Below are positions 4,094 through 22,442 of a stretch of DNA of 22,442 nt, in pieces. The DNA lies in contig JAGWDQ010000131.1 in the NCBI GenBank assembly GCA_018260615.1, positions 1-22,442 of the forward strand. The letters are read 5' to 3'. Position 1 is the stretch's first letter, and every line of letters starts with the position of its first letter. This stretch comes from Candidatus Altarchaeum sp. GTDB taxonomy: Archaea > Altiarchaeota > Altiarchaeia > Altiarchaeales > Altiarchaeaceae. The notes beneath the pieces are model-generated. The model saw only the letters and a list, made by a program, of their open reading frames with translations, was not told the DNA's origin and searched no databases. A program made the position numbers and the translations under genes.

Positions 4094-4137
4094 GGTTAAT
4101 GAGGTTAATTATGGAAAAGTAATTATTTACTGCTAAA

Positions 4138-4875
4138 ATGCGACTTTTAATAAAATTAAGGAATGCGAAAGAGCAGGCGTATGATTTGAAGTATTACCAC
4201 AAATTACAGGGCTTTATATATGATTTAATAAAAGATACAGATTACGGCGAACTTCATAATCGCGAGGGATATAAGTTTTTCTCTTTCTCAAATATTTTTC
4301 CGATGAAAACAGGTAAAGGCGACGAAAGGAATCTCATGCTCGCATCACCGAGCGGGAAATTTATTGATGCGGTTTCAGGTAAATTAAGCGGGAGAAAAGA
4401 GAAATTACTGCACATAGGAGAATACGAACTTGAACTTTGCGAGATAAAAAAAATAAAACCAAAACTGGAAAATAAATGCACCATTATAACGGGAACACCC
4501 ATAGTAATAAGAATACCGAAAGAGAACTATGAAAAATACGGCATAGAAGAAGAATACGATTCAACTTACTGGAAAAAGGAGTACTCTTTTGAACCGTTCA
4601 TAAAACAGCTTGAAAGTAATTTATTTAAGAAATATAATGCATTCTATAACACAGGAATAAATGAATTTCCGATATTTGAGCAGTTCATATTCAAAAAACC
4701 AACAGTCAACCATGTTATAAAAAACGGGATGGAGCATAAGGTATTCGGATCTGTGTGGGAGTTTAATTTCAATCATTTAAATGATTCGCAGAGAAGGATT
4801 CTTGAATTCGGATTGGATACGGGATTCGGGGAAATGAATTCGCTGGGGTTTGGATTTATGAATGTGGAAAAATGA
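4138..4875 (+). CDS. cas6: CRISPR-associated endoribonuclease Cas6
   Basis: YHKLQGFIY, FFSFSNIF, TGTPIV and the C-terminal Gly-rich loop GFGEMNSLGFGF. Confidence 0.95.
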   Translation: MRLLIKLRNAKEQAYDLKYYHKLQGFIYDLIKDTDYGELHNREGYKFFSFSNIFPMKTGKGDERNLMLASPSGKFIDAVSGKLSGRKEKLLHIGEYELELCEIKKIKPKLENKCTIITGTPIVIRIPKENYEKYGIEEEYDSTYWKKEYSFEPFIKQLESNLFKKYNAFYNTGINEFPIFEQFIFKKPTVNHVIKNGMEHKVFGSVWEFNFNHLNDSQRRILEFGLDTGFGEMNSLGFGFMNVEK

Positions 4876-4928
4876 AGTATTTATATTTAAATTTTTAATT
4901 TTAAAATTTACTCGCTGTCAATCGTAAA

Positions 4929-5342
4929 ATGAATATAAAACGAAAAGTGCGGACGCTTGGATTTCCAAAAAAACCAAAACCAAAAGTTCCGGAGCAGACA
5001 AAGGTGGAAGTAGGAAAAATATGCAATGAATTTGTTGAATCATTTTTAAAGCCGCAATACATTAAACCGCCGCCAAAAGATAATGATTTTAACTATGTTG
5101 TTGACATATACACAAAATGGCGCCTCAATTGTTTCTATTTCATCGCAAAATACAGATGTCCGGGCCCTAACGCAGTATCTCTGTTCTTTGAAGATAAATT
5201 TGCCAGAATTGAATATGTGGATAAAAACAAATTTAATCTGTCATATATGAGACACACAGAACAGTGGTTTGAGATTTTTACGGAAATATCACTTAAAGAA
5301 TGCATAGAGGCAATAAAAGAAATGCCTCATTTTATGCCTTGA
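4929..5342 (+). CDS. Conserved hypothetical protein (possibly DUF3024-like)
   Basis: 137-aa ORF with protein-like composition and the motif FARIEYV..NKFNLSYMRHTEQW. Not a recognisable Cas protein. Confidence 0.65.
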   Translation: MNIKRKVRTLGFPKKPKPKVPEQTKVEVGKICNEFVESFLKPQYIKPPPKDNDFNYVVDIYTKWRLNCFYFIAKYRCPGPNAVSLFFEDKFARIEYVDKNKFNLSYMRHTEQWFEIFTEISLKECIEAIKEMPHFMP

Positions 5343-5446
5343 TAAAATTTAAATTTAAAACGCCAATTGCACATTATAAATATAAAACAAAGATTTAACC
5401 TACATTCCGCACATTCTATCAAATTTTTTAATTTCCGATTGTTTTT

Positions 5447-5460
5447 CGCAAAATTTATAA
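5447..5460 (+). promoter_or_regulatory. Putative BRE-TATA element upstream of cas8
   Basis: CGCAAAATTTATAA, close to CGAAAATTTATAA in the CRISPR leader (14933-14945). A second TTTATAA is near 5530. Confidence 0.4.
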
Positions 5461-5625
5461 CAAAAATTTGTAAATTTTATCGTTTTTGAGGGTGATGTGT
5501 GGAATGTAAGATATAAGGTTAAGAAATAAATTTATAATTATACAATCATAATTATATTAAGAAAATTTAATTGAATGTATGAAAAGTAAATTTAATGACA
5601 ATCTTAATTAAACTATAAAAGAGAT

Positions 5626-6978
5626 ATGGAAAATATTATTTATAAATTTACAGGTGATCCTTTTGTAGATGCTGGAATCTGGGCTATATGTGGATGGGTT
5701 GGTAAGACAAAACCAGAGGAATTAGATAAAGAGGATTTAAAAAAGATAACTGGAGACATAGTTCAACTTTATTTAACTGAAAAATGGGCGAAATCTCTTT
5801 TTTCAATTTTTCCAAACAACCCAATTACAAATCCTTCTGTAAAAGACAAGAAAACGAGATATTCTAATTATCTGAATGGACTAATTGGATATATAAACAA
5901 AATGCCCGCTGAAGCAACTGGAAATTGTATTAGTTGCGGCCATAGAGATGTTAAAGAAATTAGGACAAAAACAGATATTCCATTAATTGGTTCAGGTACT
6001 ATGATAAATTTCTTTCCTTCTGGGCAATCTGGTGGAGATTATTGTCCCGCGTGCACATTTGCTGTCCAGTTTTCACCTTTGGTTTTATATCGATGTGGTA
6101 AATTGCTGTTAGTTCATTCAAATTCAGATAAAATTATGCGTTATTGGTCCAAGAAAGCAATTAAAGATGTGAGAAGACAAACTCTTATGAAAGGATATAC
6201 CGGATGTTTTAATGAATATTTCACAAACCCAATAAATGCTCTTTTCAATATAATTGAGTCTATGATAAGAGAGTATGATGAAAACTGGCTTAATGAAAAT
6301 CCTTCAATAAACCTATATCATTTTACAAATTATAATCAAGGACCTGATATTGATACGTATCATGTCCCAACACCTATTTTTATGTTTTTGGCTTATGTAA
6401 AACAACATGAGAGGTATGACGATTGGAAAAAAATTGTTAAAAAAGGGTACAAGAAAGTCGATTGGGATAAAGTAAAAGAAGAAGATGAGTATAAGAATAA
6501 AACTAACTTAGTTTATAATAATTTATTAAAAAATAAATCAATAATAGGGTATTTCCTTAATAGAAAAAATAGAGAAATAATTGGTGACTGGAACTTATTT
6601 ATATTTTATTTAAAAGAAGTAAAAAAAATGGATCCAAAACGATTGGAAACCCTTAAAAGGGTGGGAGATGAATTGTCTGAATATATAAAGTCAACGGACA
6701 ATACAAAAAGATTGAGTGATTTAGAAAGGGTAAAAAATTATGGCAGTTTTAGAAATATTCTAAGGAAAATTATTAAAGATAGAATTAACAATGCAGATAA
6801 ACCAATGTTTTCGTTGGAGGAATATGTAGAATATTTGTTTCCGGACGGATATCTTAGCTGGAGGGAAACACAAGATTTGCTTTTATTCAGAATATATGAA
6901 GATTTACATGATTGGTTGAAAAACAAAGAATTACCTGAAAATGAAGTTGAGGAAGAAATAAGTGATGATAAAAATTAA
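5626..6978 (+). CDS. cas8b1: Type I-B Cas8b1/Cst1 (CXXC-CXXC) large subunit
   Basis: N-terminal FTGDPFVDAG, SIFPN, CISC and CPAC motifs. Directly precedes cas7 and cas5. Confidence 0.92.
   Translation: MENIIYKFTGDPFVDAGIWAICGWVGKTKPEELDKEDLKKITGDIVQLYLTEKWAKSLFSIFPNNPITNPSVKDKKTRYSNYLNGLIGYINKMPAEATGNCISCGHRDVKEIRTKTDIPLIGSGTMINFFPSGQSGGDYCPACTFAVQFSPLVLYRCGKLLLVHSNSDKIMRYWSKKAIKDVRRQTLMKGYTGCFNEYFTNPINALFNIIESMIREYDENWLNENPSINLYHFTNYNQGPDIDTYHVPTPIFMFLAYVKQHERYDDWKKIVKKGYKKVDWDKVKEEDEYKNKTNLVYNNLLKNKSIIGYFLNRKNREIIGDWNLFIFYLKEVKKMDPKRLETLKRVGDELSEYIKSTDNTKRLSDLERVKNYGSFRNILRKIIKDRINNADKPMFSLEEYVEYLFPDGYLSWRETQDLLLFRIYEDLHDWLKNKELPENEVEEEISDDKN
6628..6978 (+). CDS. cas11: Probable internally initiated Cas11 small subunit (116 aa)
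   Basis: In-frame ATG (M335) after LKEVKK, followed by a helical C-terminal domain. Internal Cas11 translation from cas8 is established for type I-B. Initiation here is inferred. Confidence 0.6.
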   Translation: MDPKRLETLKRVGDELSEYIKSTDNTKRLSDLERVKNYGSFRNILRKIIKDRINNADKPMFSLEEYVEYLFPDGYLSWRETQDLLLFRIYEDLHDWLKNKELPENEVEEEISDDKN

Positions 6979-7004
6979 TAAATTTAAAAAACAAAATAAA
7001 GAAA

Positions 7005-8057
7005 ATGGCAAAAAATGTAATCGGCTTTATGCTGGTGGATGCGCCTCATTCGGCGTTGAATAATGCTGGAAGTGATGTGGGAGAAAGAACGGACAATATA
7101 GTCAAAGTCAAATTAATTCGTAGAGGAAAGGATTCATATCCTTATGTGTCTGGTCAGGCGGTGAGATACTGGTGGAGAGATACACTACAATCAAAATTTG
7201 AGTGGAAATTATCCCCTATTGAAAGAAAAGAAAAAATTGCTTTTACAGCCGCGAACCCTGTGGAATATGCTGACGATGATATTTTTGGTTATATGCGGGC
7301 ACTTAAAAAGGATAAAAAATCGGAGGAAAAGAATAAAAAGGAATATGTAAAGGATAAAACGGAAGAGGGAGGCACCGTTACAAGATTATCACCTCTAAAA
7401 AATTCCCCTTTAATCTCCGTTATTAGCCAGATACCAACCAATGATTTTGGAGTTATGGCTCGACATGAAGGCAATCCAGTACCTTATGAACACGAATTTT
7501 ATTCAACAGTTTTAAAAGGCATATTTTCTCTGGATTTAGACCGTGTAGGTATATTCTATGGAAAAGAAAAAACAGGATATAAGAACATGTACTCTAAATT
7601 GGAAGAGATTGCTAAAGAAAAAGGTGCTGAAAAAGATGGCGATAGATGGGTTATGCCAAAAGATGTGAGAATAAAAAGAGCAAAAGAAGCTATTGCTGTT
7701 CTCCCATATATTAGCGGCGGTGCTAAGCAAACACCCCATCTGACTGATGTTTCACCAAAGTTTTTGGTTTTAGCGGTTTTAGATGGCGGAAACCATATTT
7801 TCATGAATATTGCAAAGGAAGATAATAGAGAAACAACAATAAGCATTGACGCACTAAAAGAGGTAATAAATGATTACTCTGATTGTCTATTAACTAATAT
7901 ATACATAGGACGCCGGGAAGGTTTTATGGACGAAATAGATGAGAAAATCAAAGGATTAGTTAAAGAATACGAAAATAAAGAAAAGAAAATAATTTACAAA
8001 TCAATAAATGAGGTTGTAAAAGATTTCGTTGAAGAAATACCTAAATTCATAAAATAA
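7005..8057 (+). CDS. cas7: Type I-B Cas7/Cst2/DevR
   Basis: DAPHSALNN, YVSGQAVRYWWR, DDDIFGYM, RLSPLK and GGAKQT motifs. Confidence 0.95.
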   Translation: MAKNVIGFMLVDAPHSALNNAGSDVGERTDNIVKVKLIRRGKDSYPYVSGQAVRYWWRDTLQSKFEWKLSPIERKEKIAFTAANPVEYADDDIFGYMRALKKDKKSEEKNKKEYVKDKTEEGGTVTRLSPLKNSPLISVISQIPTNDFGVMARHEGNPVPYEHEFYSTVLKGIFSLDLDRVGIFYGKEKTGYKNMYSKLEEIAKEKGAEKDGDRWVMPKDVRIKRAKEAIAVLPYISGGAKQTPHLTDVSPKFLVLAVLDGGNHIFMNIAKEDNRETTISIDALKEVINDYSDCLLTNIYIGRREGFMDEIDEKIKGLVKEYENKEKKIIYKSINEVVKDFVEEIPKFIK

Positions 8058-8059
8058 AT

Positions 8060-8683
8060 ATGGACGTATTAAGGATTCTAATTGAAGGATGGACTGCCTC
8101 TTTTAGATACCCGAGTTTTATTAGCGGATACCAGCCAACACTTCCATCACCGCCTTTGAGTACAATTTACGGTTTGATATCATCAGCAAAGGGTGAACTT
8201 GTTGGTCCCGAGGATTTATGTGTAGGATATGTTTTTGATTGTGAAAGTAAAGCAGTTGATTTAGAGACAATTTATGAATTAAGTCCAAACTTGCATGCTA
8301 AATCAAATGTTATAAAAAGAGAATTTCTATTCAACCCTAAATTACATCTTTATATCAAAGATTTAAGTTACGAACAATATTTTAAGAAACCATATTATTC
8401 CATGCTGTTTGGAAGATCAACGGACCTTGCAATGGTAAAGGAAATTAAAAAAATAAAATTATCTGAAAGAGAAAATATTAATGTGGGAAAAACAATACTT
8501 CCAATGGAATTGGCTGGTGCTCATGGCCATGTTGTCCCTTTACCAACTCATTTTACAGATACAATACCAAGAAAGGTAATTGGAGTTAAACCATATATCT
8601 TAATGACGGAATTTTTTAAATATTCTGCTAAATGTCCATACGATGAAGAAAAGGGATGGGGAGTATGGTTTCATGAGAAATAA
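8060..8683 (+). CDS. cas5: Type I-B Cas5
   Basis: ASFRYP...QPTLPSPPLSTIYGLISSAKG N-terminal signature and FGRSTDL. Confidence 0.95.
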   Translation: MDVLRILIEGWTASFRYPSFISGYQPTLPSPPLSTIYGLISSAKGELVGPEDLCVGYVFDCESKAVDLETIYELSPNLHAKSNVIKREFLFNPKLHLYIKDLSYEQYFKKPYYSMLFGRSTDLAMVKEIKKIKLSERENINVGKTILPMELAGAHGHVVPLPTHFTDTIPRKVIGVKPYILMTEFFKYSAKCPYDEEKGWGVWFHEK

Positions 8684-8687
8684 AAAG

Positions 8688-11162
8688 ATGACATTATTAG
8701 CAAAACCTGATGAAACGATATTAGAACATACTGAAAATGCTTTAAAAGTATTTAAAAGTATAAAAAACGCTTATGAGAAAGTTCCTGAATTGTGCAGTGT
8801 TAATGACTTTTGGGAGCATCTTTTTTATGCCGTATTTTTTCATGACTTTGGGAAGGGAGCATCCGGATTTCAAAATGTTTTTAATGGAAATAAATGGAAT
8901 TATCGCCATGAGATTTTATCTGCTGGTTTTATATCTTCTCTAAATTATGATGAACTTTATAAAGAAGCTATTGGACTTGCCATAATAACACACCACAAAG
9001 ATATAGAATACTTAAAAGAAAAATATGCCACTACCGATCAATTAGAAATTGGAAAAAAGAGATATGAATCTAAACTTAAAGAACTTGAAGCTAATTTTGA
9101 TGAAATAAAAACATATTATGATAAAATCCCCGAGTTTAGTGAAAAGTATTTAGGTTATGAGTTAAGGAATTTCAAAATTTTAAATTCTCCACAGAAAATT
9201 GTTGATGTATATAAAGATATTGTTATTAAATATGAGGGACAATTAAATTATGGTGAAAAAACAGAATTGCATAGAAAGTATGGGATCTTTTTAAAAGGTT
9301 TTCTTAATGCATGTGACCATCTTGCCTCAGCTCATAAGTATAAAATACTAAATGCAGTTAGGAATATGCGTGAAATTTATTCATTCAAAGATTTGAGAAG
9401 TACACAAATAAAAGCATTAAATACCAAAGGAGATTCTTTTTTGACTGCTCCGACAGGAAGCGGAAAAACCGAAGCATCTCTTTTTTGGACAGATAAAAAC
9501 CAAAATACTCAAAAATCAAGAAGGGTTTTCTATTTGCTACCTTACACTGCAAGTATAAATGCGATGTATGAACGGCTGAAATCTGACTTCAGAAAATATT
9601 TGTTTAGATGGGACGATATTCCTGAAAACAATACAGAATTCATAAAATTTTTAAAAGATGCTTTAAAAACAGAAGGGGTAGAAAATGCAGAAATCAAAAA
9701 AAGCGACAATAATGAAACAATAACTGTTATGAATGAGAAAAACGTAATTACTATCAAACTGGACAAAAAAGAAAAGAATGTGACTTTAGAAATTACTGGT
9801 GGTAAAACATACGAATACTTTTTAAAAGAAGAGAAAGGTAAGCTAAACATATACTTCGGAGACGATGAACTTGTTGGAATTCAACATGGAAAAGCAAACT
9901 ATTTTTTATATAAAGCATTTTTAGAGGAAGAGGATTATACAGTAGCTAAAAACATGGCTAAAAACATGACAAATTTAACAAAAAAGATTTATGGACCTTA
10001 CAAAGTACTTACCCCCTTCCAGATACTAAAAGCATTTTTTGGGATGTATTGGTTTGAAATGCAACTTTCAGAGATGGCAAACGGACTTTTTATTCTTGAT
10101 GAAATCCATGCTTATGATGCACATACAACATCTCTAATACTTGAATGTTTAAAGATTTTAAAACATGAATATAAGGTAAATTTGTTTATCATGTCTGCAA
10201 CACTTCCTAAATTTATAAAAGAACTATTCAGGGAAATCCTTGAAATTGATAATGAAATCTTCATAGAGAAAAACGAATTAAAAGAATTTACAAGGCACCG
10301 TGTGAAAATATTGGATGGAAATATTATTGACAATATGGATAAAATAAAATCAGATTTAAAAAGTAAGAGGGTTTTGGTTGTTTGCAACACAGTTTCAAGA
10401 GCACAAGAAGTTTTTAAAGAATTATCAAAAACTGAAAAGAATAGTGTTCTTTTACATGGACGATTCATGTTAAGGGATAGAGAAAAAATAGAGAAAAGAT
10501 TGAACGAAGTAAATCTTTTAGTTGGAACTCAGGCAATAGAAGTTTCCTTGAATATTGATTATGATATTTTATACACCGAACCTGCACCAATAGACGCTCT
10601 AATTCAGAGGTTTGGAAGAGTTAACAGAAAAGGTTGGGAGAAACAGATCATTGCTCCTGTAAATATCTTATCAGAGGGTTCAGATAAAGACAAATACATT
10701 TATACTAAAGAATTAGTGAATAGAACTATTGAAAAACTTAAAGAAGTTGATTTATTGGAAGAGGATATGATCCAAGAGATAGTAGATGATATTTACAAAG
10801 AGGGGTATGTTGGAAAAGACAAAGAAGATTTTGAAAAAGTAAAAGAAAATTTCAAGTTATTTTACAATGAAGTTGTTCCTTTTATTTACGAAAAAACAAA
10901 GGAAGAAGATTTTTATTCTCTTTTTAAATCATACGACGTCGTTCCTTTTCAATACAAATTAGAATATTTAGACGAAATTAAAAATGGTCGTTATTTAGAA
11001 GCAATAGGATACTTTACTTCAATAAGTATAGGGCAGTTTAAAAAGTTGAAAAATGAAAATAGAATTGAAATGGATGGAGATAATAAAACTTATTTTGTAA
11101 ATGCGAAATACACCTCTGAATTAGGATTAATTATTGATGAGGAAGACGACAACATAATATGA
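8688..11162 (+). CDS. cas3: Cas3 HD nuclease-helicase with an 89-aa insertion
   Basis: HD domain (EH...HDFGK, RHE, HH, CDHLAS), then APTGSGKT, LPYTASIN, DEIH, SAT and QRFGRVNR. Start placed at the ATG 4 nt after the cas5 stop rather than at 8643. Confidence 0.95.
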   Translation: MTLLAKPDETILEHTENALKVFKSIKNAYEKVPELCSVNDFWEHLFYAVFFHDFGKGASGFQNVFNGNKWNYRHEILSAGFISSLNYDELYKEAIGLAIITHHKDIEYLKEKYATTDQLEIGKKRYESKLKELEANFDEIKTYYDKIPEFSEKYLGYELRNFKILNSPQKIVDVYKDIVIKYEGQLNYGEKTELHRKYGIFLKGFLNACDHLASAHKYKILNAVRNMREIYSFKDLRSTQIKALNTKGDSFLTAPTGSGKTEASLFWTDKNQNTQKSRRVFYLLPYTASINAMYERLKSDFRKYLFRWDDIPENNTEFIKFLKDALKTEGVENAEIKKSDNNETITVMNEKNVITIKLDKKEKNVTLEITGGKTYEYFLKEEKGKLNIYFGDDELVGIQHGKANYFLYKAFLEEEDYTVAKNMAKNMTNLTKKIYGPYKVLTPFQILKAFFGMYWFEMQLSEMANGLFILDEIHAYDAHTTSLILECLKILKHEYKVNLFIMSATLPKFIKELFREILEIDNEIFIEKNELKEFTRHRVKILDGNIIDNMDKIKSDLKSKRVLVVCNTVSRAQEVFKELSKTEKNSVLLHGRFMLRDREKIEKRLNEVNLLVGTQAIEVSLNIDYDILYTEPAPIDALIQRFGRVNRKGWEKQIIAPVNILSEGSDKDKYIYTKELVNRTIEKLKEVDLLEEDMIQEIVDDIYKEGYVGKDKEDFEKVKENFKLFYNEVVPFIYEKTKEEDFYSLFKSYDVVPFQYKLEYLDEIKNGRYLEAIGYFTSISIGQFKKLKNENRIEMDGDNKTYFVNAKYTSELGLIIDEEDDNII
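9597..9853 (+). mobile_element. In-frame, inverted-repeat-bounded insertion in cas3 (putative protein-coding MITE / mobile domain)
   Basis: TATTTGTTTAG (9597-9607) matches the reverse complement of CTAAACATATA (9843-9853) at 10/11. Flanks CTTCAGAAAA (9587-9596) and CTTCGGAGAC (9854-9863) match 7/10. Total offset is 267 bp. Removal gives ERLKSDF-GDDELVGIQHG. Confidence 0.6.
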
Positions 11163-11217
11163 TCTCCTATGATTATACTGTTTTATGCAATTGTTCTTTT
11201 AATTATAATTAAATTTC

Positions 11218-11268
11218 ATCGTTTATAATCTCCAAAATCTAATTATTTTATCGTTTATAATCTACAAA
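11218..11268 (+). promoter_or_regulatory. Tandem TATA-containing repeat upstream of the inserted ATPase
   Basis: ATCGTTTATAATCT(C/A)CAAA at 11218-11236 and 11250-11268 (18/19 identity, period 32). Confidence 0.5.
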
Positions 11269-11276
11269 TTTATAAT

Positions 11277-12605
11277 ATGAAAGAAATAATCATCAGATAC
11301 AACCCATGGTGGCATACCGGGAATATATCCGAAGAAAAAACAGGAATCAGGAGAAGCAGGTATTTAAATCAGATACTTTCCTTTATGGACTCTCCGGAAA
11401 TAATAAAGATTGTCGGAGTGCGAAGGTCAGGGAAAACCACGCTTATTTTTCAGTTAATTGATTTTCTGCTTAAAAAAGGTGTTGACCCCAAAAATATCTG
11501 CTATGTGCAGATGGATGATGAGGAGTTTTCATTTTACGATAAAAACAAGCTCATAAAACAGGTTATTGATGAATATCAGGAAATATGCGAAAAAAATATA
11601 GAGAAAGACAGGATTTATTTTTTATTTGATGAAATCCAGTACATTGACACATGGCCCGGATGGCTTAAAACATATTATGATAATTTCAAAAATGTGAAAT
11701 TTATCGTTTCGGGCTCATCATCCACGCTCATTGATAAGGACTCTGTTGAGAAACTTTCGGGAAGGCAGATTGATTTTATGATTCAGACCCTTTCATTCGG
11801 GGAATTTCTTGAATTCAACAATATTAAAATTAAATTTCAAAATGGTCTGTTTGATGTATCTCTTGAAGATATAGAAAAAAACATTGAGTTTGCAGCAGAA
11901 AAAAACGAGCTCAATATCTTACTAAAAAGATACCTTGAAACAGGGGGTTTTCCGAATGTAGTTTTTCTGGAAGATGAAAAAAGAAGGATTATATTGAAGC
12001 AGTACTTCAGGGATATCGTGTACAGAGATATTATACGGGTCTTTAAAATAAGGGATGCCGAGTTGCTGGAGAATTTTGGTGTTTATATGTTCAAGCACAT
12101 CGGCAAAAAATTTAGCTTTACATCCCTTTCAAAGGTGCTTGGCGTAAGCACAGACACTATTATAGAATACTTCAGCATGTTTTTGAAGACCTTTCTTTAC
12201 TATGAGGTAAACTATTATTCAACCGCTCTTAAAAGCACAATAAGAAAAGCAAAGAAAATTTACTGTGCAGACATCGGATTAAGGAATGCAATAATAACCG
12301 AAAGAGATGAAGGCGAAGCTGTTGAAAATGTTGTTTTCAAACATCTGATATTAAGTTACGATAAAATTTACTACTGGGACAACAAATACGAATGTGATTT
12401 TATAGTAAAGACCTACGAAAACATAATGCCAATAGAAGTAAAATACAGTGATGACCCGAAGAGAATTAACGGCCTTCTTGAGTTTATGGAAAATTTTGGC
12501 GTTAAACGCGGGATTGTCGTAACAAAAGACATTCTGAAAAAAGAGAAATTCAGCGATTGTGAGGTTTTATTTATCCCTCTGCGGATATTTTTATTATTAT
12601 TTTAA
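11277..12605 (+). CDS. AAA+ ATPase (AAA_14) with DUF4143 / PD-(D/E)XK-like C-terminus
   Basis: YNPWW, Walker A GVRRSGKT, Walker B FDEIQ, VSGSSS, GGFP and C-terminal ECDF...PIEVK. Confidence 0.9.
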   Translation: MKEIIIRYNPWWHTGNISEEKTGIRRSRYLNQILSFMDSPEIIKIVGVRRSGKTTLIFQLIDFLLKKGVDPKNICYVQMDDEEFSFYDKNKLIKQVIDEYQEICEKNIEKDRIYFLFDEIQYIDTWPGWLKTYYDNFKNVKFIVSGSSSTLIDKDSVEKLSGRQIDFMIQTLSFGEFLEFNNIKIKFQNGLFDVSLEDIEKNIEFAAEKNELNILLKRYLETGGFPNVVFLEDEKRRIILKQYFRDIVYRDIIRVFKIRDAELLENFGVYMFKHIGKKFSFTSLSKVLGVSTDTIIEYFSMFLKTFLYYEVNYYSTALKSTIRKAKKIYCADIGLRNAIITERDEGEAVENVVFKHLILSYDKIYYWDNKYECDFIVKTYENIMPIEVKYSDDPKRINGLLEFMENFGVKRGIVVTKDILKKEKFSDCEVLFIPLRIFLLLF

Positions 12606-12606
12606 A

Positions 12607-13110
12607 ATGCTCCCATCCAACCTTTATTTCACAGGAACCCAGATAAATTATTACATTGTCTGTCCGCGTAAATTATGGCTTTTTACAAAAAACATAGAAA
12701 TGGAACACACAAGCGATCTGGTCTATGAAGGAAAACTCATTCACGAGAATTCCTACGAAAGAAAGGAAAAGGAAATTCAGATTGGAAATATAAAGATTGA
12801 CTTTATGGAGAAGGGCTCGGGATTAGTAATTTGCGAAGTTAAAAAATCAAAGAAGATTGAAAAAGCACATTTTTATCAGATACTCTATTATCTTTATTAT
12901 CTGAAAAATTTGGGAATAAATGCAAAAGGAACAATAACATATCCTTTATTGCGGAAACGGGAAGAAATTTCTCTTACAAAAGAAAACGAGGAAGAAATTT
13001 CAGAAATTTTAAACAAAATTAAAGAACTGCTTGCCCTTAAAGACCCTCCTCTTTTAGAGAAGAAAAAAATCTGCAACAAATGCAGTTATTACGATTTTTG
13101 TTTTTGCTAA
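12607..13110 (+). CDS. cas4: CRISPR-associated exonuclease Cas4
   Basis: CPRKLW, KIDF...EVKKS and C-terminal CNKCSYYDFC (4 Fe-S cysteines). Start at the ATG 1 nt after the ATPase stop. Confidence 0.95.
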   Translation: MLPSNLYFTGTQINYYIVCPRKLWLFTKNIEMEHTSDLVYEGKLIHENSYERKEKEIQIGNIKIDFMEKGSGLVICEVKKSKKIEKAHFYQILYYLYYLKNLGINAKGTITYPLLRKREEISLTKENEEEISEILNKIKELLALKDPPLLEKKKICNKCSYYDFCFC

Positions 13111-13123
13111 AAATTAATTTAAA

Positions 13124-14113
13124 ATGAAACAAAACTATTACCTGATGAAAAGCGGACGACTGAAAAGAGAACAAAACACGATTTATTTTGAAAACGAAGA
13201 AGGAAGAATTCCCCTTCCTGTAAACAACATTTCATCAATTTTCGTTATGGGTGAACTTGACATTAACAGCAAACTGTTAATTTTTCTCTCACAAAACAAC
13301 ATCCCCATGCATTTTTTCAATTATTATGGTTATTACTCGGGGACATATTATCCGCGAGAATATCTGAATTCCGGATTTTTGATAGTGAAACAGGTTGAGC
13401 ATTACACAAATAATGAAAAGCGTATGAACATTGCCAGAGAAATAATCAGTACGGCAAGTCATAACATTCTGAAAAATCTCATTCACTATCAAAGTAACGC
13501 AAAAGATGTTAATGAAGAGATTGAAAAAATCAGAAAGGAATCCGAAGAAATTTCCGGTACGAATAATATCCCGCAGCTTATGTCAGTAGAAGGAAGAATC
13601 AGGGAGACATATTATAAAACATTCAATAAAATTTTAAGAACGGGGTTTGAATTTGAGAAGAGGGTCAGAAGACCTCCTGACAATATGATAAATGCGCTGA
13701 TTTCTTTTGGAAATTCTTATATGTATGCGACTGTGCTCAGCGAAATTTATCACACACAGTTAAATCCCGTGCTCAGTTATCTGCATGAACCCTCCGAAAG
13801 AAGATTTTCGTTAAGTTTGGATATAAGTGAAATTTTTAAGCCGGTAATTACCGACAGGGTGATATTTAAACTCATCAACAATCAGATGCTCAAAGAAGAT
13901 GACTTTGAGCAGGAATTGAATTGCTGTCTTTTAAACGATAACGGGAAGAAAATTTTTACAAAAGAATACGATGAGAAACTGAAGACAACGATAGAACATA
14001 AAGAACTCGGAAGAAAAGTATCATATCAGACATTGATACGGCTGGAACTTTATAAATTAGAAAAGCATTTGATTGGGGAAAAGGAGTATAAGGGGTTGAA
14101 GATGTGGTGGTGA
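13124..14113 (+). CDS. cas1: Type I-B Cas1 integrase
   Basis: NYYGYYSG, EG..R..YY, RRPP.N.INALISFGNS, YLHEP...RFSL.LDISEIFKP and the terminal MWW. Confidence 0.97.
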   Translation: MKQNYYLMKSGRLKREQNTIYFENEEGRIPLPVNNISSIFVMGELDINSKLLIFLSQNNIPMHFFNYYGYYSGTYYPREYLNSGFLIVKQVEHYTNNEKRMNIAREIISTASHNILKNLIHYQSNAKDVNEEIEKIRKESEEISGTNNIPQLMSVEGRIRETYYKTFNKILRTGFEFEKRVRRPPDNMINALISFGNSYMYATVLSEIYHTQLNPVLSYLHEPSERRFSLSLDISEIFKPVITDRVIFKLINNQMLKEDDFEQELNCCLLNDNGKKIFTKEYDEKLKTTIEHKELGRKVSYQTLIRLELYKLEKHLIGEKEYKGLKMWW

Positions 14114-15094: not shown

Positions 15095-18000
15095 GTTTGA
15101 ATAGAACCAGTGTGGTATTGAAATGACAAAGAATTCGAGAAATATCAGAAAGCAAATGACAGTTTGAATAGAACCAGTGTGGTATTGAAATATAATTAAT
15201 TATATTTATAGGTTGAATTTCTCCATCGTTTGAATAGAACCAGTGTGGTATTGAAATATCCACACACATTGAGGTCGTTATTTTCGACAGAAGTTTGAAT
15301 AGAACCAGTGTGGTATTGAAATGTTTTATGCGTAGTCGCAGCAGTAGCAGGTACGTTTGAATAGAACCAGTGTGGTATTGAAATCACGGAATACGACCAG
15401 AACAACTGTGGGGAAATATTGTTTGAATAGAACCAGTGTGGTATTGAAATAAAAACAAATTAATAATAATTAAAAAAAAACAAACAGTTTGAATAGAACC
15501 AGTGTGGTATTGAAATATATATTTTTTTGTTTCCATATTAAATTTTTAGTTTGTTTGAATAGAACCAGTGTGGTATTGAAATATTATTATTCCGTATGGT
15601 GTTCCATTACCAATCGGCGAGTTTGAATAGAACCAGTGTGGTATTGAAATTCAATACTGTAGATAGTTGTTCTTTATATGTAGATGGTTTGAATAGAACC
15701 AGTGTGGTATTGAAATTTATTTCAAAATCACTCTCATTTCTTAAAAATTCAAGTTTGAATAGAACCAGTGTGGTATTGAAATCTCATTATGAGAATACGT
15801 CCTTGAGGTTGTCACTTGTTTGAATAGAACCAGTGTGGTATTGAAATATAAATTGTTCCTTCATTCCAATTATACATCTAAGTTTGAATAGAACCAGTGT
15901 GGTATTGAAATGGGCAACAAAGACATTATGTTGCAAGATTGATAACAAAGTTTGAATAGAACCAGTGTGGTATTGAAATTTAAATCTGTTTTTTGTTGTA
16001 ATTTTTTCAGTATTTGCGTTTGAATAGAACCAGTGTGGTATTGAAATAACTTTTGATACTTTTTTTCAATATGTTAACATTTTGGTTTGAATAGAACCAG
16101 TGTGGTATTGAAATGCTGAAATATTTTCTTTATATCTTTGCATTTTATATTTGTTTGAATAGAACCAGTGTGGTATTGAAATCTGAAATATTTTCTTTAT
16201 ATCTTTGCATTTTATATTTATAGTTTGAATAGAACCAGTGTGGTATTGAAATCCAGCCATATTTATTGCATCCTGAATTTTCTTTTTGGTTTGAATAGAA
16301 CCAGTGTGGTATTGAAATAATATGCTGACTTAACCTTTTCCCCCTGCATTCTATAAGTTTGAATAGAACCAGTGTGGTATTGAAATCTGTCTTTTTTTAT
16401 GTTGTTGTAAGTGGTGATTTGTTGTTTGAATAGAACCAGTGTGGTATTGAAATGGAATGATGAATTATTCCGTTGATTTAAATAATCAAAAGTTTGAATA
16501 GAACCAGTGTGGTATTGAAATCGTTATCAATAATTCCGTTGTTGTTTAAGTCAGGCGTTTGAATAGAACCAGTGTGGTATTGAAATTATCTCCTTCACCG
16601 TCAAAGTCCAAATGCAAATATGCTGTTTGAATAGAACCAGTGTGGTATTGAAATAAATCTAATTTAATTTGTTCCGCTAATTGTTCCTGCGTTTGAATAG
16701 AACCAGTGTGGTATTGAAATTTTTGAACAAAAAAGAGTGTAAGAAGTAAAAACCTCCTGTTTGAATAGAACCAGTGTGGTATTGAAATTATTCATCGCTT
16801 CAAAAATAACTACCGCCTTAAATGTTTGAATAGAACCAGTGTGGTATTGAAATTATTTCTTTACCTTCGCAAAGATATACATCGTGTTGTCCGTTTGAAT
16901 AGAACCAGTGTGGTATTGAAATTTCTTTATTAACTGAAAATGTTGTTGCTGTATATCTGTTTGAATAGAACCAGTGTGGTATTGAAATTAAATATTATTT
17001 AAAGTTATTGTATTATTTATTATGTTGTTTGAATAGAACCAGTGTGGTATTGAAATTTACTATCTTGTGTTGATGCAGTATATGTTGAACTTGTGTTTGA
17101 ATAGAACCAGTGTGGTATTGAAATTACACTCCTTAAACAAATTTTGGAAACTTACGCCTGCAAGTTTGAATAGAACCAGTGTGGTATTGAAATCCTGTTG
17201 CGAGCAAAAGAGGCGCCCCTACAACATCGCTGTTTGAATAGAACCAGTGTGGTATTGAAATTGTATTGTTTTATTTACAAATATTTTTGTATCTACAGTT
17301 TGAATAGAACCAGTGTGGTATTGAAATATAACTGCTGTTACTGCTGAAATGTGGATAAAATTTGTTTGAATAGAACCAGTGTGGTATTGAAATATTATAA
17401 TTTTTAGATAACCATTCTTTATTAACTGAAAGTTTGAATAGAACCAGTGTGGTATTGAAATCTTATTGCTTCAATTATAAACTTATATTCAGTTGGGTTT
17501 GAATAGAACCAGTGTGGTATTGAAATTCTGAAATAAGCAAATCATTTATCTTTTTTATTTGCTGTTTGAATAGAACCAGTGTGGTATTGAAATTATATTT
17601 TTCATTTTGATTTGTTAAAGTTAGAAAATAGTTTGAATAGAACCAGTGTGGTATTGAAATTAAGAGAAATCCCAAGCACTGATAATATCGTATTTTCGTT
17701 TGAATAGAACCAGTGTGGTATTGAAATCAGCCAGATTTTGCCTGTGAAGCATATGCCGACATCGTTTGAATAGAACCAGTGTGGTATTGAAATCTCTGAA
17801 AAGGCGATATTTTATCGTTATATTTTGCAGTTTGAATAGAACCAGTGTGGTATTGAAATCTGATTTGCCATATTCCATGCCAGTCCCTCACTTGTGTTTG
17901 AATAGAACCAGTGTGGTATTGAAATCAGGAATTATTTGTGTATATTTTGGGAGTTCAGTATAAGTTTGAATAGAACCAGTGTGGTATTGAAATCGATGAG

Positions 18001-21000
18001 CCATTTGATTTGCCGTTCTTTCCGATATATCGTGTTTGAATAGAACCAGTGTGGTATTGAAATATTAACCCATGCATACCTTAAAAGTGTTGAATATTTC
18101 GTTTGAATAGAACCAGTGTGGTATTGAAATATAAGGTAGATAATATGTTCATAGTCATACTAATAAAGTTTGAATAGAACCAGTGTGGTATTGAAATCTT
18201 TTGCACTCCACACGCCAACTATCAAATCATATGGTTTGAATAGAACCAGTGTGGTATTGAAATTCGGAATAACCAAGCAGTAATTCCGACGCCTTAAAGT
18301 TTGAATAGAACCAGTGTGGTATTGAAATACTATTACCGCAATTAACCCTTTCTTTTTGTTTGAGACCGTTTGAATAGAACCAGTGTGGTATTGAAATATC
18401 GTTTTAGGTGCTATTGCGGGTGCGGTTAAAAATGTTTGAATAGAACCAGTGTGGTATTGAAATAGAGCCGTCCCAACCCTTACCAAAATAGAAGCAACGT
18501 TTGAATAGAACCAGTGTGGTATTGAAATTTAAACTTAACTTGGTTTTATTCACTTCTTACACTTGGGTTTGAATAGAACCAGTGTGGTATTGAAATACAG
18601 GAAGGTCTAAATTCAAGTATCGTGTAAATGTGTTTGAATAGAACCAGTGTGGTATTGAAATGCGGATACAGGGATAATGAGAATAATCATTGATGACGGT
18701 TTGAATAGAACCAGTGTGGTATTGAAATATGTTTTTTATGCCTTCTAATTGCTCTTTAACCCGTTTGAATAGAACCAGTGTGGTATTGAAATTTAATATA
18801 CATATTTTTATTAAATTTTCTTTCATTTGTTTGAATAGAACCAGTGTGGTATTGAAATATGGGGATATTTTGATGAGACCAGCAAATATTTGAGGCAGTT
18901 TGAATAGAACCAGTGTGGTATTGAAATAACAGCAAGCCATCAACGAAATTGGAGCAATTAGTGGGTTTGAATAGAACCAGTGTGGTATTGAAATGAAACA
19001 AAAGAGGAAATAAATACTGAAACTTGTTTGTGGTTTGAATAGAACCAGTGTGGTATTGAAATGTTGTCGTTGCAGGATCCTGAGTATGTTTCCATTATTG
19101 TTTGAATAGAACCAGTGTGGTATTGAAATTTTTTGTATTTGTAAATTATAACATTTTTCACAATATTGTTTGAATAGAACCAGTGTGGTATTGAAATCTC
19201 GGGTCGGGTCGTTTTTCACACAAAACCACGTGTGTGTTTGAATAGAACCAGTGTGGTATTGAAATAAGCATTAAATAACTATCAACAAACCGAACAAGAA
19301 AAGAGTTTGAATAGAACCAGTGTGGTATTGAAATAATTAAACAAAGAGTTTATAAGCAATCCGACACAGGAAGTTTGAATAGAACCAGTGTGGTATTGAA
19401 ATTTTTTGTATTATAATAAATTACAGGATAAATTAATCGTTTGAATAGAACCAGTGTGGTATTGAAATTTTTTGTAGTAATTAAATTAAATATTCTTTCT
19501 TGTTGGTTTGAATAGAACCAGTGTGGTATTGAAATTAGTTTCGTCCTTATGTGGTGTATCTGGGCACATTTTTACGTTTGAATAGAACCAGTGTGGTATT
19601 GAAATGAGTGTGAAAATTCAAACCTCTTAACAATTTCATGTTTGAATAGAACCAGTGTGGTATTGAAATGCTTCATATTCGTCGTACACAACAGAGCATG
19701 TTAGCGTGTTTGAATAGAACTAGTGTGGTATTGAAATGCAACGCGGACCATATCCACGCTGCCGACTTTTTTCGTTTGAATAGAACCAGTGTGGTATTGA
19801 AATATTACAGGAAATTACCTCATTTCTTCGTAGTTGAAAAGTTTGAATAGAACCAGTGTGGTATTGAAATTGGACACAGGGAAATGGAACGCTGCAAGGG
19901 TGCTGCGTTTGAATAGAACCAGTGTGGTATTGAAATATTTTGCTGCACTGTCGAAACATGAATGTGTCTTCAAGTTTGAATAGAACCAGTGTGGTATTGA
20001 AATGTGACAAGGTCTGATATCAATCTGCTTTTGTTTTTTAGTTTGAATAGAACCAGTGTGGTATTGAAATTCATTTGATGCAAAAAAACTTATGTGGGCA
20101 GTAATTAGTTTGAATAGAACCAGTGTGGTATTGAAATTTGTAATTGTATAAACGGACAAACTCAAAATTGCTCTCGTTTGAATAGAACCAGTGTGGTATT
20201 GAAATATGAGGTTTTCAATGAAGTAAAAGAAAAAAGTATTGCAAGTTTGAATAGAACCAGTGTGGTATTGAAATTTGCAAATAGTGATTTCGTCAGCACC
20301 GCCCAGATTTAGTTTGAATAGAACCAGTGTGGTATTGAAATAATCTAAAGGTTCAAAATTTTAAAATAATATGCCTTCCGTTTGAATAGAACCAGTGTGG
20401 TATTGAAATGCGATGGTTGGGTTCATATTGTAGGAACTTGGAACGTTTGAATAGAACCAGTGTGGTATTGAAATGAGACAGAACAATTTCAGCGAGAAAC
20501 TCATTCAGACGGTTTGAATAGAACCAGTGTGGTATTGAAATTAAGAACAATATTTCACATAATATTTACTCCGTTTGAATAGAACCAGTGTGGTATTGAA
20601 ATAAGCATTAAATCTTTGGAATACTTTGGGATACTTATAGTTTGAATAGAACCAGTGTGGTATTGAAATTTCTTTTATTGTAAATTGTATCTAAAAATTC
20701 TGCACCGTTTGAATAGAACCAGTGTGGTATTGAAATAATTATGTAACGGGGTGTTATGGAAATCTAATTTATGTTTGAATAGAACCAGTGTGGTATTGAA
20801 ATACTGTGAAGGTGATTATAAAATAAGAAAATTTTCAAGTTTGAATAGAACCAGTGTGGTATTGAAATGAAGAGTTATGGATAGTAACATATCAGCATTT
20901 GCAGTTTGAATAGAACCAGTGTGGTATTGAAATAACCGTTCAGGACGGGTGAGTTTCGGAAATTCTAAAAGGTTTGAATAGAACCAGTGTGGTATTGAAA

Positions 21001-22387: not shown

Positions 22388-22442
22388 ACCTTTATGTCGG
22401 GATTATTCCGTGAATCGTGCAAATTTAATTTCTAAATTCTAA

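What the first reader, a model, noticed from the sequence alone, without database searches (positions are those of the whole stretch)
9587..9863. Cas3 helicase carries a translated, inverted-repeat-bounded 89-aa insertion: a candidate protein-coding MITE / mobile domain
Seen: between motif Ia (LPYTASINAMYERL) and VGIQHG there are 267 extra, stop-free, in-frame bases (RKYLFRWDDIPENNTEFIKFL...EEKGKLNIYF). The DNA for the end motifs YLF and LNIY is an 11-bp inverted repeat (10/11). It is flanked by ACTTC exactly 267 bp apart, or read as a 257-bp element plus a degenerate 10-bp duplication (7/10). Removal restores a normal-looking SDFGDDELVG loop. There are no intein end residues (no C/S start, no HN end). 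From memory and unverified: similar YLFxW...KLNIY segments occur inside unrelated proteins of ANME/Methanosarcinales-type archaea, and I know no family name for them. Inference: a selfish element that spreads by in-frame insertion into protein loops and folds as a tolerated domain, analogous to Rickettsia palindromic elements. Alternatively the paired ends allow RNA-level removal, or the domain adds a function to Cas3.
Basis: partly seen in the sequence, partly recalled or inferred. Interest (0 to 1): 0.9.

Follow-up and report, generated by a model that had tools for sequence, protein, structure and literature searches.

The report
Translated mini-transposon inside Cas3 helicase
The extra 89 residues in this archaeal Cas3 are a copy of a small IS66-type transposon (a MITE) that is read in frame as a compact folded domain; the same element sits in hundreds to thousands of unrelated archaeal proteins, showing how mobile DNA can add whole domains to proteins without breaking them.

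Summary

- **Anatomy.** Window 9596-9854 is a 259-bp element. Its imperfect terminal inverted repeats match 11/14 here and 12/13 in younger copies. It is flanked by a decayed 8-bp target duplication, TTCAGAAA / TTCGGAGA. 259 + 8 = 267 bp = 89 codons, all open.
- **Copies.** The same genome (Altiarchaeales) has about 12 further sites. All are in frame, in unrelated proteins such as LonB, RadC (nested copies), TBP, rhomboid and a kinase.
- **Spread.** Worldwide, 2036 cluster representatives carry the module, including proteins of ANME, Methanoperedens and Freyarchaeia.
- **Empty sites.** Cas3 orthologues of 82% and 81% identity, and the G018 orthologue (62-65%), lack it exactly.
- **Second hit.** A second Cas3 lineage was hit independently in the same loop.
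- **Parent element.** Single-ORF IS66-family (ISBst12-like) insertion sequences in related genomes have the same 14-nt ends and perfect 8-bp duplications. A non-coding MITE in this genome also shares these ends.
- **Protein.** The module folds confidently (pLDDT 91), has no PDB match, and evolves under purifying selection (dN/dS 0.14-0.39).
- **Rejected.** Intein and RNA excision are not supported.
- **Open.** Whether the domain does anything for Cas3 is unresolved.

This scan had already found the same family on other DNA (RadC/LonB of this genome; Methanoperedens/ANME genomes). I found no paper describing it. The closest known analogue is the Rickettsia palindromic elements.

The parts
8643..11162 (+). 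cas3 (HD nuclease + SF2 helicase), host gene of the insertion. All helicase and HD motifs are intact.
   Evidence: dN/dS 0.13 against the insert-less orthologue P0222
9588..9595 (+). left copy of the 8-bp target-site duplication, TTCAGAAA (codons F316, R317 and the first two bases of K318)
   Evidence: 6/8 identical to the right copy; orthologues read TTC/TTT + 5 nt here
9596..9854 (+). 259-bp translated MITE. It encodes Y319-Y404, an 86-residue copy of the YLFxW...KLNIY module.
9596..9609 (+). left terminal inverted repeat, ATATTTGTTTAGAT (family consensus GTATTTGTTTAGCT)
   Evidence: identical 14-mer at both ends of IS66-type elements L147 and L151
9841..9854 (+). right terminal inverted repeat, AGCTAAACATATAC (reverse complement GTATATGTTTAGCT)
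9855..9862 (+). right copy of the 8-bp target-site duplication, TTCGGAGA (F405, G406 and the first two bases of D407)
4138..14113 (+). type I-B-like cas operon around cas3: cas6 4138-4875, cas8b 5626-6978, cas7 7005-8057, cas5 8060-8683, an AAA_14/DUF4143 ATPase 11277-12605, cas4 12559-13110, cas1 13124-14113
15095..22442 (+). CRISPR array with at least 109 copies of a 30-nt repeat (GTTTGAATAGAACCAGTGTGGTATTGAAAT), running to the end of the window

Best explanation
The segment is a non-autonomous DNA transposon (MITE) of the IS66 family, ISBst12-like group. It landed in the surface loop that follows helicase motif Ia of Cas3 and has been translated as part of Cas3 ever since.

Shown:
- The element has about 14-nt terminal inverted repeats and makes an 8-bp target duplication.
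- Element plus duplication is a multiple of three (259 + 8 here, 265 + 8 in consensus copies).
- One frame is open from end to end, including through both inverted repeats.
- That frame encodes a compact alpha/beta domain that is conserved as a protein.

Inferred:
- An ISBst12-type DDE transposase supplied in trans moves the element.
- Insertions in the wrong phase or orientation, or in structurally intolerant places, destroy genes and are purged.
- Intergenic copies of this old family have decayed or been deleted.
- What remains are in-frame copies in loops, linkers and termini. These are protected because any imprecise deletion would break the host gene.
- In Cas3 the domain is most likely a tolerated passenger that bulges from RecA1. 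The gene, the operon and a very large CRISPR array are intact.
For: 1. Copies in unrelated genes.
- About 12 further sites in the own genome, all in open frames.
- Hosts: LonB (two copies), RadC, PQQ-propeller kinase, rhomboid, MBL/TPR protein, DUF4411, two TBP paralogues and unknowns.
- 13-17 matches in each of the 4 genomes of the genus.
- 2036 cluster representatives worldwide, 1373 at E<=1e-10.
- 40 different Pfam families among 88 hosts, none in more than 5. They include CTP synthase, primase large subunit, RFC, Cas7 and RAMPs.

2. Transposon hallmarks.
- Copy ends are GTATTTGTTTAGCT ... AGCTAAACATATAC.
- Over 24 independent sites the best register is 8 bp next to the G. Mean match is 4.0/8 against 2.8 for mismatched pairs, with 9 sites at >=6/8 against 4% expected (permutation p<5e-5).
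- The Cas3 site was mis-registered in that run and scored 1/8. Its true score is 6/8, so the test is conservative.
- Perfect 8/8 duplications occur in the nested RadC copy and in L115.
- Nested insertion: one copy sits inside another in RadC of G000, while the RadC orthologues of G001 and G002 have only the outer copy.

3. Empty sites.
- P0222 (738 aa, 82% aa identity, 83-84% nt) and P0223 (81%) lack the element exactly. So do G018 and more than 100 other Cas3 homologues.

4. Autonomous relatives.
- PF03050 elements in the same class carry the same ends. L147 and L151 (G036) have GTATTTGTTTAGCT 14/14 at both ends.
- L142 (1414 bp, 450-aa ORF) and L144 (1455 bp, 461-aa ORF) have perfect 8-bp duplications.
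- This matches ISDge4, an ISBst12-group IS66 element: TIR GTAACTGCTCAGCA, a 449-aa transposase and an 8-bp repeat (PMC12898284).
- An intergenic non-coding MITE family in the own genome shares the terminal 13 nt and has perfect 8-bp duplications in 7 copies.

5. Translated and folded.
- All copies have 0 stops in the sense frame. Both other sense frames average 7.1 and 8.4 stops per 264 nt in genes of this genome.
- dN/dS is 0.14-0.39 between orthologous copies.
- AlphaFold2 with a 78-sequence alignment gives pLDDT 91 and pTM 0.81.

6. Host still functional-looking.
- All Cas3 motifs are present and dN/dS is 0.13 against P0222.
- The cas operon is complete and the array has at least 109 repeats.
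Against: - No IS66 transposase and no autonomous element with these ends was found in the window's own genome (87% complete MAG). Only remnants were found in two genus relatives. Current mobility in this lineage is therefore unshown.
- The closest pair of coding copies is only 79% identical in DNA, so the family looks old here.
- No intergenic or wrong-frame copy of the coding family was seen. Random insertion plus selection explains this only if old neutral copies have been lost, and that is an inference.
- Extra conservation of synonymous sites at the ends is weak: clear-ish at the 5' end, not at the 3' end.
- Translation is inferred from sequence constraints.
- That the domain's N and C termini lie next to each other could not be measured, because no coordinates were returned.
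Confidence: 0.88

Rival explanations
1. Exapted domain. The element arrived by transposition, but in Cas3 (and perhaps other hosts) the encoded domain has since acquired a function, for example regulation, partner or nucleic-acid binding, or modulation of CRISPR interference. It would be kept for that reason and not merely tolerated.
For: - Purifying selection acts on fixed copies (dN/dS 0.14-0.39).
- The same Cas3 loop was hit independently in a second Cas3 lineage. P0224 has the insert-less sister P0225, and its junction lies 3 nt away.
- Further Cas proteins carry copies: another Cas3 in RecA2, Cas7, Cmr3 and RAMPs.
- The LonB copies are conserved in all four genus genomes.
Against: - Purifying selection is also expected for a passenger that must simply keep folding so as not to poison its host.
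- The hosts are extremely heterogeneous (40 Pfam families in 88 proteins).
- No conserved surface, ligand motif or known fold was found.
- The closest Cas3 orthologues work without it.
Confidence: 0.15
2. Ordinary domain shuffling. The module is a lineage-specific protein domain spread by duplication and recombination of coding sequence, and the inverted ends and flanking duplications are coincidence.
For: - Tandem and partial repeats of the module exist in some proteins (MBL/TPR protein, RadC).
- The module is a well-folded domain.
Against: - Flanking 8-bp duplications are far above chance and perfect in young copies.
- The ends are identical to those of IS66-type elements and of a non-coding MITE.
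- End complementarity is not explained by peptide plus codon usage (p about 0.001).
- Boundaries are exact to the nucleotide in unrelated hosts and phyla.
- An ANME-1 copy is as close to Altiarchaeum copies (dS 0.67) as copies within Altiarchaeales.
Confidence: 0.03
3. The segment is removed before the mature protein is made. It would be either an archaeal bulge-helix-bulge type intron whose paired ends bring the splice sites together, or an intein-like protein splicing element.
For: The two ends can pair in RNA. The stem appears in the MFE and centroid folds.
Against: - The fold is no more stable than shuffled sequence (z = +1.1) and there is no bulge-helix-bulge geometry at the junctions.
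- There is no Rfam hit.
- The frame is open in every copy and the peptide is under purifying selection and folds. None of this would be needed for a spliced-out RNA.
- There is no Cys/Ser/Thr at the N-junction, no His-Asn at the C-junction and no HINT-like fold.
Confidence: 0.02

Closest known systems
Rickettsia palindromic elements (RPEs; Ogata et al. 2000, as summarised in review PMC10969869)
   Same: Both are short repeated selfish DNA inserted in frame into many unrelated protein-coding genes. Both are translated as a conserved peptide compatible with host protein folding, and both survive inside genes.
   Different: - There is no sequence relationship, and the hosts are archaeal (Altiarchaeales, ANME, Methanoperedens, Freyarchaeia).
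- This element has classical terminal inverted repeats, an 8-bp target duplication and an identifiable parent IS family.
- It is longer (about 265 bp against about 150 bp) and encodes a complete, confidently folded 86-88-residue alpha/beta domain instead of a short peptide segment.
ISBst12-group elements of the IS66 family, e.g. ISDge4 (PMC12898284), and MITEs derived from insertion sequences
   Same: The end type matches (GTAxxTGxTxAGC, about 14 nt) and so does the 8-bp direct repeat. Autonomous relatives with a single transposase of about 450 aa and identical 14-nt ends occur in related Altiarchaeia genomes.
   Different: - The element carries no transposase and shares only the ends with the IS.
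- Unlike ordinary MITEs, including the non-coding one with the same ends in this genome, every detectable copy lies inside a gene, in one orientation and phase, and is open through both inverted repeats.
Intragenic ERIC / RU / BOX / QMITE-type bacterial MITEs with ORFs (PMC10969869, PMC2759123)
   Same: These are small mobile repeats occasionally found inside genes as in-frame fusions.
   Different: Those are mainly intergenic, with occasional genic copies and no evidence of a folded domain. Here the genic, translated state is the rule, and the peptide is a conserved domain found in about 2000 protein clusters.
Inteins and archaeal bulge-helix-bulge introns in protein genes
   Same: Both are selfish insertions inside essential or conserved genes that leave the host function intact.
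   Different: Those are removed at the protein or RNA level. This element lacks their defining junction residues or RNA structure and appears to stay in the mature protein.

Membership tests
MITE (non-autonomous DNA transposon) | Terminal inverted repeats | tested here: met
   11/14 in the Cas3 copy and 12/13 in consensus-like copies. Given the peptide and codon usage, p is about 0.001.
MITE (non-autonomous DNA transposon) | Target-site duplication of fixed length | tested here: met
   The duplication is 8 bp. The permutation test over 24 independent sites gives p<5e-5. It is perfect in nested RadC and L115 and 6/8 at Cas3.
MITE (non-autonomous DNA transposon) | Too short to encode a transposase; multiple dispersed copies | tested here: met
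   Copies are 246-300 bp. There are 13-17 matches per genus genome. The module has no similarity to the IS66 ORFs.
MITE (non-autonomous DNA transposon) | Presence/absence at orthologous sites (evidence of insertion events) | tested here: met
   Insert-less Cas3 orthologues exist at 82% and 81% identity, plus G018 at 62-65%. The nested RadC copy is present in G000 only.
IS66 family, ISBst12-like group (as parent of the MITE) | Ends shared with an autonomous element encoding a DDE_Tnp_IS66 transposase | tested here: met
   L147 and L151 (G036) have GTATTTGTTTAGCT 14/14 at both ends around a PF03050 ORF. This was found in related genomes, not in the window's genome.
IS66 family, ISBst12-like group (as parent of the MITE) | 8-bp direct repeat, single transposase ORF of about 450 aa, ends GTA...AGC | tested here: met
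   L142 and L144 have perfect 8-bp repeats and 450- and 461-aa ORFs. Compare ISDge4 in PMC12898284.
IS66 family, ISBst12-like group (as parent of the MITE) | Mobilisation of the MITE by that transposase | not testable with these tools
   This needs a transposition assay.
Rickettsia palindromic elements | In-frame insertion into many unrelated genes, encoding a conserved peptide | tested here: met
Rickettsia palindromic elements | Sequence homology to an RPE family / Rickettsiales host | tested here: not met
   The hosts are archaeal. The module has no Pfam match. The resemblance is functional only.
Intein | Cys/Ser/Thr at the N-junction, His-Asn + Cys/Ser/Thr at the C-junction, HINT fold | tested here: not met
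   The junctions read K-YLF and NIY-F. The predicted fold is a beta-alpha-beta7 domain with no HINT match.
Archaeal BHB intron | Bulge-helix-bulge motif at both junctions | tested here: not met
   There is only a simple terminal stem, z = +1.1. The ORF is conserved and under purifying selection.
Type I Cas3 (host gene) | HD nuclease plus SF2 helicase motifs I, Ia, II, III, V, VI inside a cas operon | tested here: met

The most novel reading that the evidence does not exclude
The element may be more than a tolerated passenger. It would be a transposon lineage that has evolved to live inside coding sequence. Its features fit that reading: an ORF through both inverted repeats, length plus duplication equal to 3n, and a self-folding domain. 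Its encoded domain could also have been co-opted in some hosts. The repeated hits in CRISPR-Cas proteins are suggestive: the same Cas3 loop twice, a second Cas3 in RecA2, Cas7, Cmr3 and RAMPs. They would then reflect either a targeting or selective link with defence genes, or a shared regulatory or docking module that alters interference.
Probability: 0.15. Interest if true: 0.9.

Novelty: new variant of a known kind. Interest (0 to 1): 0.75.

Why it matters
- **Protein evolution.** It gives a concrete mechanism by which prokaryotic proteins gain whole inserted domains in one step. A transposon of known family (IS66/ISBst12-like) has ends that are themselves codons and a cargo that is a self-folding domain. 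It has done this in core machinery (Cas3, LonB, TBP, RFC, primase, CTP synthase) across several archaeal phyla.
- **Experiments.** It offers a natural map of permissive insertion sites in those proteins. It also offers a compact domain that tolerates, and is tolerated in, many contexts.
- **Annotation.** The module has no Pfam family. It inflates or splits domain hits, as with DEAD/ResIII in this Cas3.
- **CRISPR biology.** It raises the testable question of whether a Cas3 with an 86-residue bulge after motif Ia works normally.

Tried and rejected
- **Other transposase families.** IS1595 (PF12762), ISL3 (PF01610) and DDE_Tnp_1 (PF01609) were searched in the genus genomes. None of the hits has these ends. 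A solitary end-like site on contig C2 lies next to an aminotransferase, not a transposase.
- **IS66 remnants in G002 and G003.** These have no clear matching ends.
- **Antisense coding.** Antisense frame -2 is open in about half the copies, against 8% of random gene windows. However, every antisense match coincides with a sense copy, and the peptide is hydrophobic. I treat this as a by-product of the purine-rich sense strand.
- **Synonymous-site conservation at the ends.** Only weakly raised, so inconclusive.
- **Covariation between the two arms.** Modest: 14 observed against 8.4 expected, p = 0.03.
- **Fold assignment.** There is no significant PDB match (best E 0.09, TM <=0.43) and no convincing ESM Atlas match (TM <=0.56). 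Pfam shows nothing at E<0.01.
- **Tool failures and misassignments.** The search for related loci with the 78-sequence alignment failed for lack of a conserved stretch. It worked with the 11-sequence alignment. A 925-aa ORF of Altiarchaeales A3 that I first took for Cas3 is a methyltransferase.
- **Not attempted.** A full-length Cas3 model with the insert was not made, because the tool returns no coordinates and so could not show where the domain sits.
Full report
**Observation**

The window carries a type I-B-like cas operon: cas6, cas8b, cas7, cas5, cas3, an AAA_14/DUF4143 ATPase, cas4 and cas1. It is followed by a CRISPR array of at least 109 repeats that runs to the window's end.

- Cas3 is the ORF at 8643-11162, 839 aa.
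- After motif Ia it contains 89 extra, stop-free, in-frame codons.
So is the ACTTC pair 267 bp apart.

**It is a repeated element, not a Cas3 peculiarity**

- Searching the window's own genome (G000, a 2.2-Mb, 87%-complete MAG) with the insert, as protein and as DNA, finds about a dozen further sites. DNA identity reaches 79%, and every site lies in an open frame.
- The hosts are unrelated. They are LonB protease (two copies), RadC, a PQQ-propeller Ser/Thr kinase, a rhomboid protease, an MBL/TPR protein, a DUF4411 protein (domain split by the insert), two TBP paralogues and proteins of unknown family.
- Source names show the organism is an Altiarchaeales archaeon.
- All four genomes of the genus have 13-17 matches. 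Two of 15 genomes of a sister family have one copy each. The other 22 genomes searched in the class have none.
- An exhaustive profile search of 1.84 billion cluster representatives finds 2036 proteins at E<=1e-3 and 1373 at E<=1e-10, many with several copies.
- Hosts with annotation include DNA ligase, a KAP NTPase of ANME-2c, HNH, radical SAM, HD and N6-methyltransferase proteins. They also include another Cas3, Cas7, Cmr3, RHS, DprA and RNA polymerase.
- Of 88 further hosts scanned, 40 different Pfam families appear and none occurs in more than five proteins. They include CTP synthase, primase large subunit and RFC.
- DNA loci were recovered from ANME-1, ANME-2, Methanoperedens, Methanosarcinales and Freyarchaeia as well as Altiarchaeales.

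**Anatomy**

- Aligned with their flanks, the copies start at (G)TATTTGTTTAGCTGG and end at AAGCTAAACATATAC. The two ends are complementary at 12 of 13 positions in consensus-like copies.
- Simulating the terminal peptides with this genome's codon usage gives such a match in 0.13% of trials. The end codons TTG, AGC, AAG, CTA, AAC and TAC are all minority codons here.
- In RadC of G000 one copy sits inside another, flanked by a perfect duplication (GCAAAAAA plus a further matching base). The RadC orthologues of G001 and G002 have only the outer copy.
- Over 24 independent insertion sites, the register that fits best is an 8-bp duplication directly outside an element that begins one base before TAT. 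Nine sites match at >=6/8 where 4% are expected (permutation p<5e-5).
- In that run the Cas3 site was mis-registered by my script and scored 1/8. Its true score is 6/8.
- More sites in other taxa score 7/8 or 8/8.
- For Cas3 the parts are: left duplication 9588-9595 (TTCAGAAA), element 9596-9854 (259 bp), right duplication 9855-9862 (TTCGGAGA). 259 + 8 = 267 = 89 codons. Consensus copies are 265 + 8 = 273.

**Empty sites**

- The G018 orthologue (62-65% identity, another family of the class) aligns on both sides of the insert without it.
- The protein database holds orthologues of 82% (P0222, 738 aa) and 81% (P0223, 735 aa) identity that also lack it. So do more than a hundred other Cas3 homologues.
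- At the DNA level, ours and P0222 are 83-84% identical on both sides, and the alignment breaks exactly at the element.
- One other Cas3, P0224 (827 aa), has a divergent copy in the same loop. Its junction is 3 nt upstream, and its sister in the tree, P0225, has none. Ours groups with the insert-less P0222 and P0223, both nodes with support 1.0.
- Two independent insertions are therefore the most economical reading.
- A third Cas3 (P0193, Altiarchaeales A3) carries a copy in RecA2 between motifs IV and V.

**The transposase**

- In the own genome, a non-coding, intergenic MITE family (135-380 bp, at least 7 copies) shares the terminal 13 nt. Its copies have perfect 8-bp duplications.
- My first searches for IS1595, ISL3 and IS4/IS5-type transposases found nothing with these ends.
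- PF03050 has no match in G000 and only remnants in G002 and G003.
- In other genomes of the class there are single-ORF IS66-type elements of 1.4-1.65 kb with these ends. L147 and L151 (G036, which also has one coding copy) carry GTATTTGTTTAGCT 14/14 at both ends.
- L142 and L144 have 450- and 461-aa ORFs and perfect 8-bp duplications.
- This matches the ISBst12 group of the IS66 family. ISDge4 of that group has the TIR GTAACTGCTCAGCA, a 449-aa transposase and an 8-bp repeat (PMC12898284).
- Only the ends are shared. The module is not derived from the transposase.

**Translated and folded**

- Every copy has zero stops in the sense frame. Both other sense frames average 7.1 and 8.4 stops per 264 nt in this genome's genes.
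- Orthologous copies fixed in LonB and RadC evolve with dN/dS 0.14-0.39.
- AlphaFold2 with a 78-sequence alignment predicts a compact domain of one strand, one helix and seven further strands, at pLDDT 91 and pTM 0.81.
- There is no significant match in the PDB or the ESM Atlas and no Pfam family.
- The RNA of the element is no more structured than shuffled sequence and has no bulge-helix-bulge motif. There is no Rfam hit. Intein junction residues are absent.
- The host Cas3 keeps all motifs and shows dN/dS 0.13 against P0222.

**Age and spread**

- The Cas3 copy differs from its nearest paralogues by dS 0.36-0.5. That is similar to orthologous copies between species of the genus, so the insertion is not recent.
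- An ANME-1 copy is as close to Altiarchaeum copies (dS 0.67) as copies within Altiarchaeales. This implies transfer between phyla.

**What is known**

- In-frame, translated MITE-like repeats are known from Rickettsia (RPEs) and sporadically from other bacteria (PMC10969869).
- Ca. Altiarchaeum hamiconexum was reported to have the highest MITE density among archaea, but without mention of coding copies (PMC11602168).
- My literature searches found no description of this family.
- This scan had already met it on other DNA: e1-1064248 and e1-5531835 in this genome, e1-5203531 and e1-2758722 in methane-oxidising archaea.

**Verdict**

- The new contributions for this site are the exact anatomy, the empty sites, a second independent hit in the same Cas3 loop, and the confirmation of the IS66/ISBst12-type parent.
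- Three points stay open: whether the domain does anything in Cas3, whether the element is still mobile in this lineage, and why only genic copies survive.

Noticed in passing
window 15095-22442: There is a very large CRISPR array: at least 109 copies of the 30-nt repeat GTTTGAATAGAACCAGTGTGGTATTGAAAT, cut by the window end. The listed minus-strand ORFs in this stretch are artefacts of the array.
   Followed up: partly
window 11277-12605: An AAA_14 + DUF4143 ATPase gene sits between cas3 and cas4, inside the cas operon.
   Followed up: no
G000 contigs C15:720-1030, C124:19294-19612, C130:22028-22396, C26:10330-10708, C37:3086-3343, C60:49913-50075, C60:63459-63595: A non-coding intergenic MITE family shares the same terminal 13 nt as the coding element. 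It has perfect 8-bp target duplications and nearly identical ends, so it looks young.
   Followed up: yes
window 4050-4096 and about 900 BLAST hits genome-wide: Short (about 47-bp) palindromic repeat units are scattered through the whole genome, and also inside the non-coding MITEs. One lies between the radical SAM gene and cas6.
   Followed up: no
L050 (G000:C9:9435-10898), aa 42-208: A TBP paralogue carries a divergent copy of the module that is itself interrupted by about 80 further residues of unknown origin. This may be another nested insertion.
   Followed up: no
L040 (G000:C60:53365-55728, minus strand), aa 77-297: An MBL/TPR protein has three tandem 30-residue N-terminal pieces of the module, followed by one complete remainder and a second C-terminal half. 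These are partial tandem duplications or rearranged nested copies.
   Followed up: no
window 9542-9850, minus strand: A 102-codon antisense ORF covers the element. The same antisense frame is open in about half of all copies (8% expected), but no protein uses it. It is probably a by-product of the purine-rich sense strand.
   Followed up: yes
P0222-P0340: The closest Cas3 relatives (55-82% identity) come from other lineages such as Methanobacterium, Methanosarcina, Methanofastidiosum and a WS2 bacterium. The same-genus genomes have only 32%-identical Cas3. The cas operon therefore looks horizontally acquired.
   Followed up: partly
Many hosts of the module are defence or conflict genes: Cas3, Cas7, Cmr3, RAMPs, a restriction-modification methyltransferase, KAP and STAND NTPases, SIR2, RHS, DUF4411, AbiEii-like AAA_21 and phage-tail baseplate proteins. 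No enrichment test was done.
   Followed up: no
P0188: A 663-aa DDE_3 (IS630-type) transposase-like protein itself carries an in-frame copy of the module.
   Followed up: no
G000:C51 (1103 bp contig): A whole small contig is an IS5/Harbinger-like transposase gene with unrelated ends. It is probably a collapsed multi-copy IS.
   Followed up: partly
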